Source: the human T2T-CHM13v2.0 reference genome, Homo sapiens
DNA length: 64,000 nt
Reading direction: 5' to 3' (one strand)
NCBI RefSeq assembly: GCF_009914755.1
Contig: NC_060925.1
Shown piece by piece: positions 22,842 through 34,817 of this stretch. The position numbers and the translations under genes were made by a program. The notes beneath the pieces were generated by a model, which searched no databases, had not been told where the DNA came from, and was given only the letters and a program-made list of their open reading frames with translations. The first letter of the stretch is position 1. Each line of letters begins with the position of its first letter.

Positions 22842-23348
<507 letters not shown>

Positions 23349-29966: not shown

Positions 29967-30206
29967 CCCCTGCCCCCTCAAGAAAAGACCAAGTCCCTGC
30001 CCATCCCATATCAAGTAGCACCTGACCCAGCCCTGTTCTTCTCAAACATAACACACTGTTTCTCTCTCCAGTTTATGGCCTGTCTCCCCACCAGAATGTA
30101 TGTTCCATGAGGGCAGGGACCTCAACTGTTTGCTTCACCAGTGTAAACCCAGTGATTAACTCAGTGTATAAACCTGTCACAAATCACTAAAACATGCCCT
30201 TGATAA

Positions 30207-30515
<309 letters not shown>

Positions 30516-30969
30516 AAGCCCTTGATAAATATTCGTTGACTAAATAGACACATAGATCAGAGATAGAACACACAGAAACAGAACCACACTCAGAGGTGGT
30601 ACAGACTTTCAGAGATGCACCGAAATGTGAACACAGACACACAGGATGATCACCACGACAGGGCCCTTCAAACTGACCCCGAGCTTCCCTTCCCTTGGTC
30701 ATTCAGCTTCGCCTCTAGGCCCAGGGCTGGAGTCACCTTTGCTCTGACCCAGTTGGTGCCCACCCGAGTGCACCACTTTCCTGGTCCCCGACTCCCTGCA
30801 CTGGGCACAGAGCTGGTATTATGTTTGAGGAGTCCTATTTGGGGCTCCTCTACTTTTTTGGGGATGTCTCCTGACAAACAGAAATTTCAACATAGTCAAA
30901 TTTGTCAATCTTTTTAAAAGTATGTTTGTGTCAGCCCAAGAAGAGCGGGGAAAAATAACCCTGCAAAGA

Positions 30970-32200
30970 CCACGCCCTGCACTCGGGGCCCCTCTGACTG
31001 CGGCTCATCTGCACAGGGTCCTGGAGCCTCGCAGGCCGCGACTGCAGCAGGCCAACCTCGTGCTCGGGCCTCGCCCCTCCCCCACGCCTCTAGCTAGGCC
31101 CCGCCCAAGACCTGCCCCTCCGCGAGCCCCCGCCCACCTACAGCGCCCCCTGTGGCCACGCCCCTCACCGGCTCTCACGGGCGCAAGGGAACTAGATGTC
31201 GCTTCCTTTTGCCCAGAAAATAGTAGTTAATATTCTGCCACCGGTGCTTCCACCTGGAGGGAAGGGAAATCGGGAAGACGGGATTGGGGCAAGTGTCCCT
31301 TCCCTCCGGGTCTGCGCCCACTCCGCCTAGCCCCGCCCCTTCCTTCCGCTCCCGGTCGCCCTCAGACCCCGCCCTTCCCACCCAGTTCCGCCCCCTCCCC
31401 TCGCCCCCAGGCCCGGATCCTCGGCTCTGGATCCGCCCCTTCCTTAGACCTCGCCCCTTCGCATAGGCCCCGGTCACCCCGTCTACTCCCCGGGCCCTCG
31501 CCCCGCCCCTCCCGGCGCACTCACGTGAGTCTCGGGCGCGCGCCGTAGCAGCTGGGCCAGCGCGCCGAGGGTACGTCGGCCAGGCCGGTGGCCGGGGGCA
31601 GCAGTAACAGGTTGCGTGCGGGCCAGTGCCAGGCGGCACCCGGAGGGTGGCGGCGCTGCGGGCTCAGCCAGTAGTCGCCCAGGCTGCGGCGGGCGGCGGG
31701 CGCCGGCAAGACCGGGCCCCGGCTGCCCCAGAAACACAACTCCTGGTCCAGGCGGTGCGGGGCCGTGGCCTGGGGCCGCCTGCGGGGGAGATGGGACAGC
31801 GGTCACCCCAGGAGAACACGACAGGCGGGGAGGAGGAAGTTGCCTCCGATCGGACGAGGCAGGGCACGGGCCGGGGTCACTCCTGGTCGATTTAGAGGGA
31901 CGTGGAAAGGGACTGGAGGCCCCCACTGGCGCCTTCCCAAGGACCTGAGTGCCTCCTCCCCCAGCTGCCAGACCAGGGCGCTTTATCCAGCTGGCGCCCT
32001 CCCTCGGGCCCCCTCACTGGGACAGAAGAAAATTCACCACGAAGTGAGCAGTCTCGGTGAATAGCATGGTGTCCAGCCGGTCTGGCCCGACTTCGGCCTC
32101 TCTTTAATACCTGCCTGGGCGAGGAGGGGGAGGCCTGAAAACCCATATTCCCCCCGGGCCCGGCTGTTTTTAGCAGAAGGCCAGGAGGCGTCAGCTGGCA
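30970..32200. promoter_or_regulatory. Orphan CpG island with GC-box arrays and E-box
   Basis: CpG-dense; many CCCGCCCC; TCACGTGA at 31521-31528. Confidence 0.85.
31175..32114 (-). pseudogene. Candidate cryptic multi-exon gene or unitary pseudogene (exons 32114/32067-32018, 31779-31525, 31253-31175)
   Basis: Polypyrimidine+CAG acceptors and GTGAG donors; phase-2 introns join into a 127-codon ORF from ATG 32067; no homology verified. Confidence 0.45.
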
Positions 32201-32260
32201 GAGGGGTTGGGGGCAGAGCTGGTCTCTCTCGTGAGGTCTAGTCTAGTCTGCCCCCACTAG

Positions 32261-33095
<835 letters not shown>

Positions 33096-33779
33096 GGCCT
33101 CCCACACTCCTGATGGTGTGCTCAGGCACAAATCACGCCTCAAAGGGCCTCCTCTTCTCCCAGGCTTAGGCACACCCTGACCTGCTCCCCATGGCTTTCA
33201 TGGGAGCCTTTTCCCTAATTCTATGCATGCTTAAATGGCAGCTCCTCAGCCAACTCTAGTTCAGGAGGCTGCTGGGGCTCCAGGACTCCCTAAACTGTCA
33301 GCAAAGTCCTGACACTTTCCTTCCCCAAAACTGAAAAGCCCTTGATCTGTTTAACCCTCTCTTTTTGCAGAAGAGGAAACTGAGGTTCACAATCGGGCAG
33401 TGAAAAGCCAAAAGTAAAACCTAGGCTTTCTACAACTCTGCCTGCTCCTACAAAAGGTGAGACAACCCTTCTGTGTGTCCTTGTCCAGCTCAGCATGGGG
33501 TTCAGGGCTCAGAGCCCAGGCTGGGCCCTGCTCCTCCCTGACCCCTGGGGATCCTAAGGAACATGCTGGCCCAGCTCCCCTTCCCACACTGCCAGTTTGG
33601 GCTATTTCCCCCCCAGTGACTCACACTGGCTGCCGGAGAGAGTGGGCAGCTGTTCTGAGCCCCCAGAGCCCAGTACAGGCCCTGACTTGCCCCCCAAGTT
33701 CTGCAGCCATATTTGGGAATTTAATGTTTTTCCTCCTTGGGGACTCTCCTTCCCTTAATCCCTTCCTTTTTTCCCTGTC

Positions 33780-34817
<1,038 letters not shown>

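What the first reader, a model, noticed from the sequence alone, without database searches (positions are those of the whole stretch)
31175..32114. Hidden three-exon minus-strand ORF or gene relic inside the orphan CpG island
Seen: three minus-strand segments have proper splice sites. Segment A runs cctccccctcctcgcccag|32114..32018|gtgagg, B runs ctgtcccatctcccccgcag|31779..31525|gtgagt (255 nt), and C runs ttcccgatttcccttccctccag|31253.. to TGA 31177-31175. Both introns are phase 2. From ACCATGC (ATG 32067) they join without stops into 127 aa: MLFTETAHFVVNFLLSQRPQATAPHRLDQELCFWGSRGPVLPAPAARRSLGDYWLSPQRRHPPGAAWHWPARNLLLLPPATGLADVPSARWPSCYGARPRLTWKHRWQNINYYFLGKRKRHLVPLRP. Segments A and C are AT-richer patches encoding aromatic and hydrophobic residues inside a GC-rich island. 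The B-C intron is full of G-runs on the minus strand, as short GC-rich introns often are. The six-frame track misses this because it is spliced. Upstream of the ATG the same frame reads RY-stop-REAEVGPDRLDT, which looks like a disabled longer exon. Inference: an unannotated small-protein gene or the core of a unitary pseudogene between FAM229A and MARCKSL1. I do not recognise the protein.
Basis: partly seen in the sequence, partly recalled or inferred. Interest (0 to 1): 0.8.

Follow-up and report, generated by a model that had tools for sequence, protein, structure and literature searches.

The report
Conserved small-protein gene labelled lncRNA
The three-exon reading frame is real: it is the intact human copy of a small protein gene shared with reptiles and the coelacanth, although the human annotation lists the locus as non-coding RNA.

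Summary
Minus-strand segments 32114-32018, 31779-31525 and 31253-31175 have AG/GT borders, two phase-2 introns, and join from ATG 32067 into a 127-codon frame. An open frame alone proves nothing here: exon B is 78% GC and open in 2 of 3 minus frames.

Three other results decide it.
- Exon B has coding-type periodicity, with GC3 0.92 against 0.74 and 0.68. Five of 10,542 non-coding windows reach that level.
- The same frame is predicted as protein in gorilla (127 aa, 97% identical), marmoset, tiger and whale. Full-length colinear homologs exist in turtle (51%, E 2e-43), snake and lizards, and a two-domain form in coelacanth.
- A profile built only from non-mammal proteins picks exons B, C and A, in order, as the three best of 3,554 six-frame pieces. 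Inferred human-carnivore changes fall 5/5/20 on codon positions 1/2/3.

The family has no Pfam, PDB or literature record and no predicted fold. Exons B and C are already exons of lncRNA LOC105378629. Exon A, which holds the ATG, is unannotated, so translation in human remains unproven.

The parts
32018..32114 (-). Exon A, the first coding exon (97 nt), not in the RefSeq table. It has an AG acceptor before 32114 and a gtgagg donor after 32018. It encodes the first 16 residues plus 2 nt of a split codon.
   Evidence: It matches positions 1-15 of the non-mammal profile and is the third best of 3,554 pieces, E 0.038. The same N-terminus appears in the gorilla and whale models and in reptiles. It holds only one ATG.
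32065..32067 (-). Start codon, with A at -3 and C at +4.
   Evidence: The homologs start at the aligned methionine.
31780..32017 (-). Intron 1 (238 nt, phase 2, GT..AG).
31525..31779 (-). Exon B (255 nt, 85 codon steps), which holds the conserved core domain. It equals the first exon of the RefSeq lncRNA model XR_007070046.1.
   Evidence: Hub table. GC1/2/3 is 0.74/0.68/0.92, chi-square 15.2. The non-mammal profile scores it E 4.4e-22, positions 15-102. The viper protein's only credible human-genome match lies here, E 2.4e-10.
31254..31524 (-). Intron 2 (271 nt, phase 2), rich in G-runs: 24 runs of 3 or more G and 7 GGGCGG boxes. It also holds the start sites of an alternative minus-strand first exon (31310) and of the plus-strand lncRNA LOC124903933 (31491).
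   Evidence: hub table.
31169..31253 (-). Exon C (85 nt), holding the last 26 codons and the stop. It equals the second exon of LOC105378629. A gtgagg donor follows 31169.
   Evidence: hub table. The profile scores it E 2.6e-05, positions 104-123.
31175..31177 (-). TGA stop codon, with 6 nt between it and the exon C donor.
23054..23151 (-). Annotated last exon of LOC105378629. Under the coding reading it would be a 3' untranslated exon.
   Evidence: Hub table only; not examined here.
30900..32100 (.). CpG island (GC 0.60-0.79, CpG observed/expected 0.5-0.9) that covers the three coding exons. Alu-like sequence flanks it.
   Evidence: Alu-like sub-threshold SRP matches lie at 30232-30514 and 32456-32848.

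Best explanation
The three segments are the coding exons of a real, old protein-coding gene. It is the single-copy human ortholog of an unnamed vertebrate family of proteins of about 125 aa, found in eutherians, squamates and a turtle, with a two-domain form in the coelacanth.

Human RefSeq lists the locus as lncRNA LOC105378629 because its models begin at exon B and so lack the ATG exon. The mRNA would be spliced A-B-C and then on to a downstream untranslated exon. It would be translated from ATG 32067 to TGA 31175 into a 14.7-kDa, very basic protein (pI 11.4).

The protein has no predicted fold. Only two short helices are predicted, at the N- and C-termini. It most likely works as an extended, partner-bound protein through its conserved linear motifs: an invariant Trp-x-Ser-Pro-Gln-Arg stretch, a Pro-Gly-x-Thr-Gly stretch and a C-terminal Trp/Lys/Arg-rich helix.

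Shown: homology, the exon set, the frame, purifying selection in that frame among mammals, and an intact human frame. Inferred: that human transcripts include exon A, that the protein is made in human, and how it acts. The cell type is a guess. Testis or ciliated cells are suggested only by the testis-specific neighbours (TSSK3 by its RefSeq name, FAM229A from my recall) and by the gorilla model's label.
For: 1. Colinear homology.
- The gorilla 127-aa model is identical to the human frame at 123 of 127 positions.
- It aligns end to end with the 126-aa hawksbill turtle protein: 64 of 126 identical, E 2e-43.
- The human frame is 45-51% identical to four squamates and the turtle, and 32% to the coelacanth.
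- Exon B matches both tandem domains of the coelacanth protein, E 5e-10 and 5e-07.

2. Independent profile test. An HMM built from 8 non-mammal proteins was run on all 3,554 six-frame pieces of the window. It ranks exon B (E 4.4e-22, profile 15-102), exon C (2.6e-05, 104-123) and exon A (0.038, 1-15) first, second and third. The next piece has E 0.28.

3. Reciprocity. The viper protein's only credible match in the 3.1-Gb genome is exon B, E 2.4e-10. The second match has E 0.38 with 2 stops. The locus DNA is single copy.

4. Codon signatures.
- GC by codon position in exon B is 0.74/0.68/0.92, chi-square 15.2. That value is reached by 0.047% of 10,542 non-coding 255-nt windows, by 0 of 232 with GC of at least 0.68, and by 41% of 208 coding windows.
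- No triplet repeat explains it.
- The periodicity fades in the B-C intron and above about 31830.

5. Selection in this frame.
- The joint nucleotide reconstruction gives 30 differences, 5/5/20 at codon positions 1/2/3.
- In another mammal (P0015), over the end of B plus C, there are 12.0 changes at position 3 against 0.7 at position 2.

6. Gene-like architecture. The splice sites are canonical. The ATG is the only one in exon A. The stop lies 6 nt before the last annotated junction, which by the usual 50-55-nt rule (recalled) should not trigger nonsense-mediated decay.

7. Evolutionary rate. Crown-eutherian branches are short (0.05-0.14) and similar to squamate branches.
Against: - The RefSeq human models given by the hub start at 31779 or 31310. 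There is no in-frame ATG in exon B or in its unspliced upstream extension. As annotated, the human RNA therefore cannot start this frame.
- No expression, junction, Ribo-seq or peptide data could be consulted.
- If transcription started upstream of 32146, an earlier ATG in a stronger context would open the other frame.
- Human and gorilla differ at 4 of 127 residues. That is near my rough neutral expectation (inference from recalled divergence values). Hominids also carry Pro at a nearly invariant Gly, column G79.
- Several mammal models switch frame inside exon B: whale P0007, and P0009, P0014 and P0015. These could be real losses or assembly errors.
- In P0015, over exon A and the first part of B, the codon bias is absent: 13.3 changes at position 3 against 15.0 at position 1. 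In whale and P0009 it is weak (6 vs 4; 9 vs 4; 2 vs 3).
- The reconstruction mixes two species. Six residue constraints could not be met.
- The eutherian stem branch is long, 0.73.
- AlphaFold gives no confident fold: mean pLDDT 45 with 5 sequences and 48 with 19.
- The composition is rich in Arg, Pro, Leu, Ala and Trp, and resembles translated GC-rich DNA.
- The PhyloCSF paper's supplementary lists showed no entry here in the parts that could be searched.
Confidence: 0.65

Rival explanations
1. Orthologous relic. The locus descends from the conserved gene and is still coding in other vertebrates and some mammals. In human, or in apes, it is no longer translated or constrained. The RNA acts, if at all, as the annotated lncRNA from a bidirectional CpG-island promoter, and the frame stays open only because decay has not yet hit it in GC-rich DNA.
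For: - The RefSeq human models lack the ATG exon (hub table), and there is no in-frame ATG in exon B.
- There are 4 human-gorilla residue differences in 127.
- Hominids have a Gly-to-Pro change at a nearly invariant column.
- Three human changes are Arg to Gln or His, at positions 17, 61 and 68. That these are CpG-transition changes is inferred from the codon table.
- Frame-switching models exist in four other mammals.
- Stops are rare in 78% GC DNA, and exon B is open in 2 of 3 frames.
- A plus-strand lncRNA starts inside the B-C intron (hub table).
Against: - The human copy has no disabling change: the ATG, all four internal splice sites, the frame and the stop position are intact.
- By eye from alignment A1, not by a scripted count, the human B+C sequence departs from the eutherian consensus at about as many sites as tiger or marmoset.
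- The gorilla RefSeq model includes exon A.
- The ape counts are too small to distinguish relaxed from ordinary constraint.
Confidence: 0.3
2. Alternative 3' end of FAM229A. The exons belong to read-through transcripts from the FAM229A promoter and encode a FAM229A isoform, as the gorilla label 'FAM229A isoform X3' suggests.
For: - The name given to the gorilla model.
- Exon A has an acceptor, so some upstream exon is expected.
- FAM229A lies upstream on the same strand (hub table).
- A join of FAM229A coding exon 1 or 2 to exon A would also be open. It would use A offset 1, then B frame 0, and end 8 codons into C (frames, exon lengths from the hub table; my arithmetic).
Against: - The gorilla protein is fully accounted for by exons A+B+C. 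It is 127 aa, 123 identical to the human frame, and starts at exon A's methionine. It therefore contains no FAM229A residues.
- A FAM229A-initiated read-through would read exon B in the frame that is less conserved, 58 of 85 against 75 of 84.
- Reptile and coelacanth homologs are stand-alone proteins of 123-202 aa.
Confidence: 0.03
3. Chance open frame in a GC-rich lncRNA, with splice sites that belong to the non-coding transcript.
For: - Exon B is open in 2 of 3 minus frames.
- 79 alternative ATG-to-GT segments could be joined upstream.
- There is no Pfam match.
- The composition is typical of translated GC-rich DNA.
- No fold is predicted.
Against: - Full-length homology to reptile proteins, E 2e-43.
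- The non-mammal profile picks exactly these three exons, in order.
- Third-position substitution excess and GC3 periodicity.
Confidence: 0.02

Closest known systems
Unnamed vertebrate family. Members seen: 'uncharacterized protein' LOC144328441 (Podarcis muralis), LOC143837512 (Paroedura picta), M6D78_013453 (Vipera latastei), lerEdw1_007251 (Lerista edwardsae), an unnamed product of Eretmochelys imbricata, and LOC102356998 (Latimeria chalumnae).
   Same: - Same length class (123-132 aa in amniotes) and the same start methionine.
- Colinear over all three exons.
- Columns W54, S56, P57, Q58, R59, G64, P78, T81, G82, V86, S88 and L101 are invariant across the 11 rows of alignment A3. The human exon B piece carries the same residues at those columns in alignment A1.
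- Identity to the human frame is 45-51% in reptiles and 32% in the coelacanth.
   Different: - The eutherian sequences sit on a long stem branch (0.73) and are much more GC-rich.
- Hominids have Pro at the nearly invariant Gly.
- The coelacanth form carries the central domain twice.
- None of these proteins has a described function, a Pfam family or a solved structure.
Gorilla RefSeq model 'protein FAM229A isoform X3' (P0001; cluster of 21 member sequences).
   Same: The same three coding exons and the same 127 codons, with 123 of 127 residues identical to the human frame.
   Different: It is annotated as coding in gorilla, while the human locus is annotated as lncRNA LOC105378629 (hub table). 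The FAM229A label does not reflect shared protein sequence.
Conserved small proteins first filed as lncRNAs, such as myoregulin, DWORF, mitoregulin (LINC00116) and Toddler/APELA. These examples are recalled and were not checked here.
   Same: A short conserved frame hidden in a transcript annotated as non-coding, recognisable by cross-species codon conservation.
   Different: From recall, those examples are mostly under 100 aa and are membrane helices or secreted peptides. This one is 127 aa, is split over three coding exons in a CpG island, is strongly basic and has no predicted fold. Whether it has a signal peptide or membrane helix was not tested. Its N-terminal hydrophobic stretch looks too short and polar to me, which is only an inference.

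Membership tests
Unnamed vertebrate small-protein family (reptile and coelacanth 'uncharacterized proteins') | Significant full-length, colinear sequence similarity | tested here: met
   Gorilla model against turtle: 64 of 126 identical, E 2e-43. Human frame against turtle: 63 of 124. Against viper: 56 of 125.
Unnamed vertebrate small-protein family (reptile and coelacanth 'uncharacterized proteins') | Family-invariant residues kept (Trp-x-Ser-Pro-Gln-Arg, Gly64, Pro78, Thr81-Gly82, Val86, Ser88, Leu101) | tested here: met
   These columns are invariant across the 11 rows of A3, which include gorilla, marmoset and tiger. The human exon B piece carries the same residues in A1. One exception: the nearly invariant Gly79 is Pro in human and gorilla.
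Unnamed vertebrate small-protein family (reptile and coelacanth 'uncharacterized proteins') | All parts of the protein found at the locus, in order, by a profile that contains no mammal sequence | tested here: met
   Exons B, C and A are hits 1-3 of 3,554 pieces, covering profile positions 15-102, 104-123 and 1-15.
Unnamed vertebrate small-protein family (reptile and coelacanth 'uncharacterized proteins') | Reciprocal best match and single copy | tested here: met
   The viper protein hits only exon B in the human genome, E 2.4e-10. The other weak loci score 7 bits or less with the profile. The DNA is single copy.
Unnamed vertebrate small-protein family (reptile and coelacanth 'uncharacterized proteins') | Same intron positions, and conserved neighbours (synteny) | tested here: inconclusive
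   Several contig-derived homologs end exactly at the exon B/C boundary column: P0013 and P0025 in alignment A3, and P0019, P0022 and P0023 by their end residues. That fits a shared intron position. No genomic DNA of other vertebrates was available, so synteny was not tested.
Functional protein-coding gene, as opposed to lncRNA | Codon-structured substitution and composition in the proposed frame | tested here: met
   GC3 periodicity with chi-square 15.2, in the top 0.05% of non-coding windows. Inferred changes fall 5/5/20 on positions 1/2/3. Identity is 75 of 84 in this frame against 58 of 85 in the overlapping frame. The signal is weaker or absent in some frame-switched mammal models.
Functional protein-coding gene, as opposed to lncRNA | Human transcripts that contain the start codon, and evidence of translation | not testable with these tools
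   The RefSeq models in the hub table begin at 31779 or 31310 and lack exon A. No RNA-seq, Ribo-seq or proteomics data were available.
Unitary pseudogene | A disabling change in human (stop, frameshift, or lost start or splice site) relative to intact orthologs | tested here: not met
   The human frame is uninterrupted, with an ATG, a stop at the orthologous end, and GT..AG at both introns. The alignment to gorilla has no gaps.
FAM229 family (FAM229A isoform) | Shares protein sequence with FAM229A | tested here: not met
   The gorilla 'isoform X3' is explained residue for residue by exons A, B and C. No direct alignment to the FAM229A protein was run.
Any Pfam family or solved structure | A match at or near the curated threshold | tested here: not met
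   - Pfam: 0 families for the human exon pieces at E up to 10.
- Pfam: 0 families for 7 of 8 homologs. P0020 has only sub-threshold repeat matches.
- Pfam: 0 families for P0019, P0029 and P0026.
- PDB: the profile search gave one chance match, E 0.47.
- ESM Atlas: no usable hit.

The most novel reading that the evidence does not exclude
A vertebrate protein-coding gene old enough to be shared with the coelacanth, belonging to a family with no name, domain, structure or publication, is intact and still under protein-level selection in human. It has nevertheless escaped the human RefSeq protein catalogue, hidden as a GC-rich three-exon frame inside a 'lncRNA' at a CpG island. If it is translated, it adds a new, functionally unexplored, disordered basic protein to the human proteome.
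Probability: 0.6. Interest if true: 0.8.

Novelty: new member of a known kind. Interest (0 to 1): 0.7.

Why it matters
- Conserved protein-coding genes missing from the human catalogue are now rare. Each one changes how variants, expression signals and methylation hits at its locus are read. Here that is a CpG island between MARCKSL1 and FAM229A, currently read as an orphan promoter or lncRNA.
- The case shows how such a gene can be missed. Its exons are very GC-rich, the coding sequence is split three ways, and the first coding exon is absent from the transcript models.
- It also opens an uncharacterised vertebrate protein family to direct tests: tagging, knock-out and partner search.

Tried and rejected
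- **Chance ORF.** This was my first reading (80%) after finding exon B open in 2 of 3 frames and 79 joinable upstream ATG segments. The periodicity and homology results overturned it.
- **Triplet-repeat artefact as the cause of the periodicity.** TRF finds only a 21-nt period-7 array in exon B.
- **Human paralogs.**
  - The locus DNA matches only itself.
  - Exon B protein searched against the genome gave only E 0.009-0.88 matches with stops.
  - The P0011 and viper searches gave no second credible locus.
  - The profile scores those weak loci at 7 bits or less.
- **A relic of a second domain copy or further exons in the window.** The profile finds nothing else below E 0.28.
- **Known RNA families.** All 12 Rfam matches at E up to 1 in 30000-34000 fall below their gathering scores. 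Ten are Alu-type (SRP or Alu-derived miRNA families) and two are weak chance matches to bacterial sRNA families. All lie outside 30914-32455, which holds the three exons.
- **Pfam, PDB sequence profile, ESM Atlas.** Nothing was found.
- **Structure prediction.** Two runs gave mean pLDDT 45.0 and 48.1, so no fold search was attempted.
- **P0016 from the profile search.** It is a bacterial fibronectin-III repeat protein and a false positive, so it was dropped. P0020, P0021 and P0024 were left out of the tree and alignment A5 because they carry read-through or repetitive extensions.
- **Literature.**
  - 'LOC105378629' gave 0 papers.
  - Five ortholog LOC names gave 0 papers.
  - 'FAM229A' gave 21 papers. 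Judged from the listing and abstract starts only, none concerns this locus or reading frame.
  - 'MARCKSL1-2' is a MARCKSL1 transcript variant, not this locus (abstract start in the listing).
- **PhyloCSF paper PMC6886504.**
  - Its supplements were searched for the gene names and for hg38 numbers derived from a recalled coordinate offset. No relevant hit was found.
  - File 1 was unreadable, file 8 was cut when stored, and the PDF could not be read.
- The own genome cannot be searched with an alignment, so a local hmmsearch of the window was run instead.
- **Ideas not tested.** A signal-peptide or amidated-peptide reading of the N-terminal hydrophobic stretch and the C-terminal Gly-Lys-Arg was considered and set aside. 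By eye from the sequences, the N-terminal stretch is polar in several homologs and the Gly is present only in amniotes. This is inference only.
Full report
**What is in the sequence**

A script that joined the three segments by coordinate gave the following.
- A is 97 nt, B 255 nt, and C 79 nt up to the TGA at 31177-31175.
- An AG precedes each segment. The donors read gtgagg after A and gtgagt after B.
- The ATG lies at 32067, with A at -3.
- A holds 50 coding bases, so both introns are phase 2.
- The joined frame has 127 codons and no internal stop.
- By eye, the printed peptide is the one in the finding.

A and C are 54% and 52% GC, against 78% for B. The B-C intron carries 24 G-runs of 3 or more in 271 nt.

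The hub table adds two points. B (31525-31779) and C (31169-31253) are already exons of the predicted lncRNA LOC105378629. C is an internal exon with its own donor at 31169, 6 nt past the stop. Exon A is in no listed model.

**Why the open frame alone means little**

- Exon B is open in 2 of 3 minus-strand frames.
- Neither open frame has an ATG in exon B or in its unspliced upstream extension.
- In the 2,721 nt upstream, 79 ATG-to-GT segments could be joined to one of the open B frames.
- The peptide is rich in Leu, Pro, Arg, Ala and Trp and poor in Asp, Glu and Lys, as translated GC-rich DNA tends to be.

At this point I rated a chance ORF at about 80%.

**First surprise: codon-like periodicity**

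That is the order seen in real GC-rich coding sequence. The chi-square for three-base periodicity is 15.2. How often other 255-nt windows of the 64 kb reach that value is shown below.

| Window class | Windows examined | Reaching chi-square 15.2 |
|---|---|---|
| Non-coding | 10,542 | 0.047%, all in one cluster near 33126-33400 |
| Non-coding, GC at least 0.68 | 232 | 0 |
| Mostly coding | 208 | 41% |

The signal is exon-shaped. It fades in the B-C intron and above about 31830. Tandem Repeats Finder finds no triplet array that could cause it, only a 21-nt period-7 array. The plus-strand frame with the same third-position phase has 2 stops.

**Second surprise: homologs**

The exon B translation was searched against 5.8 billion proteins. 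Eight mammalian proteins were found at E up to 0.01, among 13 candidates.
- A gorilla RefSeq model of exactly 127 aa, named 'FAM229A isoform X3', in a cluster of 21 members.
- Tamarin and marmoset models.
- A tiger model with exons B and C but a different first exon.
- A humpback whale model with the same exon A peptide but a frame switch inside B.
- Three models from unnamed contigs.

A profile of five of these was run against 1.84 billion cluster representatives and gave 19 hits at E up to 0.001. One, P0016, is a bacterial fibronectin-III repeat protein and a false positive. The remaining hits include clearly diverged relatives.

Name look-ups identified five of them as 'uncharacterized' proteins of 123-132 aa from Vipera latastei, Podarcis muralis, Lerista edwardsae, Paroedura picta and Eretmochelys imbricata. 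A 202-aa protein comes from Latimeria chalumnae.

- The gorilla model aligns end to end with the turtle protein: 64 of 126 identical, 2 gaps, E 2e-43.
- The human frame, joined in a script, is identical to turtle at 63 of 124 aligned positions, to viper at 56 of 125 and to coelacanth at 38 of 119.
- Exon B matches both tandem copies of the central domain in the coelacanth protein.

**Independent check of the exon set**

I built an HMM from eight non-mammal proteins only (alignment A4). I ran it on all 3,554 stop-to-stop pieces of the six-frame translation of the window.

| Rank | Piece | E-value | Profile positions |
|---|---|---|---|
| 1 | Exon B | 4.4e-22 | 15-102 |
| 2 | Exon C | 2.6e-05 | 104-123 |
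| 3 | Exon A | 0.038 | 1-15 |
| 4 | Next best piece | 0.28 | - |

In the other direction, the viper protein's only credible match in the whole 3.1-Gb genome is exon B, at E 2.4e-10. Its second match has E 0.38 with two stops. The locus DNA is single copy. The weak matches elsewhere score 7 bits or less with the profile. So this is a single-copy ortholog, not a chance frame.

The homologs start at the same methionine.

**Selection in this frame among mammals**

No mammalian DNA was available. I used predicted proteins that happen to read the same DNA in other frames.

It is only 58 of 85 identical to a carnivore-type unspliced model (P0024) in the overlapping frame. Both alignments are gapless.

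I then sought the nucleotide sequence closest to human that satisfies both translations. It differs from human at 30 sites, 5, 5 and 20 at codon positions 1, 2 and 3, with 84 sites each. Six residue constraints were violated because the two models come from different species.

Single-frame versions of the test gave mixed strength.

| Model and region | Changes at position 3 | Changes at the other visible position |
|---|---|---|
| P0024 | 21.5 | 10.5 |
| P0015, end of B plus C | 12.0 | 0.7 |
| Whale P0007 | 6 | 4 |
| P0009, first block | 9 | 4 |
| P0009, second block | 2 | 3 |
| P0015, exon A plus start of B | 13.3 | 15.0 |

The weak cases come from models that switch frame, where the gene may be damaged or the assembly wrong. 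One search printed four further rows, which I left out. The P0014 and short P0007 alignments look spurious, and the P0003 alignment covers untranslated sequence.

A maximum-likelihood tree of 19 family members shows a long eutherian stem (0.73 changes per column). Its crown-eutherian branches are short (0.05-0.14), similar to those of squamates.

**What remains open for human**

- The frame, start, stop and splice sites are intact.
- The human RefSeq models begin at exon B or inside the B-C intron, so they lack the ATG (hub table).
- An ATG at 32146 lies just upstream of exon A's acceptor, in a strong context. It would open the other frame if transcription began upstream and the intron were retained. 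The marmoset model uses such a start.
- Human and gorilla differ at 4 of 127 residues, positions 17, 62, 68 and 127. By my rough estimate from recalled divergence figures, that is close to neutral. The counts are too small to decide.
- Hominids carry Pro at a nearly invariant Gly.

I therefore give 0.65 to an intact, still coding human gene. I give 0.30 to an orthologous relic that is no longer used as a protein in human. Very little remains for a FAM229A isoform or for chance.

**The protein**

It is 127 aa and 14.7 kDa, with pI 11.4, 18 Arg+Lys against 5 Asp+Glu, and 7 Trp.
- Pfam gives nothing for the human pieces or the homologs.
- A profile search of all PDB chain sequences gives one chance match, E 0.47.
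- The ESM Atlas gives no usable hit and holds a model of the turtle protein with pLDDT 0.29.
- AlphaFold2 gives mean pLDDT 45.0 with 5 sequences and 48.1 with 19. Only two short helices appear, at residues 4-15 and 103-115.

Conservation is concentrated in short linear motifs: an invariant Trp-x-Ser-Pro-Gln-Arg, a Pro-Gly-x-Thr-Gly stretch and the C-terminal helix. The most likely mode of action is an extended protein that is ordered only on a partner. This is inference. The Ser-Pro-x-Arg stretch fits the minimal proline-directed kinase site, which is a recalled consensus. The cell type is unknown.

**Literature and annotation**

- No paper in the searchable library mentions LOC105378629 or the ortholog LOC names.
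- The 21 FAM229A papers were judged from the listing and abstract starts only. None appears to concern this locus or reading frame.
- 'MARCKSL1-2' is a different RNA (abstract start).
- The whole-genome PhyloCSF paper's supplements showed no entry for the neighbouring gene names or the expected hg38 numbers in the parts that could be searched. One file was cut, one was unreadable and the PDF was not available. The hg38 numbers rest on a recalled offset.
- I could not consult GENCODE, UniProt or HGNC. The gene may already be recorded there.

**Verdict**

The 'hidden ORF' is the human member of an old, uncharacterised vertebrate protein family. It lies inside a locus that RefSeq labels lncRNA.

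Noticed in passing
window 33126-33400: This is the only other non-coding stretch of the window with three-base GC periodicity as strong as exon B (chi-square up to 17.8, GC about 0.52). It lies inside the RefSeq enhancer 33050-33564 and touches an exon of LOC124903933. The stop-to-stop frames there show nothing obviously protein-like. It remains unexplained.
   Followed up: partly
window 31254-31524, both strands: The B-C intron holds 7 GGGCGG boxes. It also holds the annotated start sites of a minus-strand alternative first exon (31310) and of the plus-strand lncRNA LOC124903933 (31491 and 31523), according to the hub table. The intron of the coding gene therefore doubles as a bidirectional GC-box promoter.
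   Followed up: no
window 32146 (minus strand): An upstream ATG with A at -3 and G at +4 lies 32 nt before exon A's acceptor. If it were retained in a transcript, it would open a 136-codon frame through exon A (offset 1) and exon B (frame 0), ending 8 codons into exon C. A FAM229A exon 1 or exon 2 to exon A read-through would enter the same frame, by my arithmetic from the hub coordinates.
   Followed up: partly
P0007 (humpback whale), P0009, P0014, P0015: These mammal models switch reading frame inside exon B relative to human. They could be lineage-specific losses of the gene or indel errors in a very GC-rich stretch of the assemblies.
   Followed up: partly
window 30232-30514, 32456-32848, 33010-33094: Alu-type sequence brackets the CpG island, seen as sub-threshold matches to SRP RNA and to Alu-derived miRNA families.
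   Followed up: no
P0011, P0012, P0017, P0019, P0020: These family members carry the central domain twice in tandem, as the coelacanth protein does, while amniote forms carry it once. On the midpoint-rooted tree they group apart from the amniotes. P0020 was not in that tree.
   Followed up: partly
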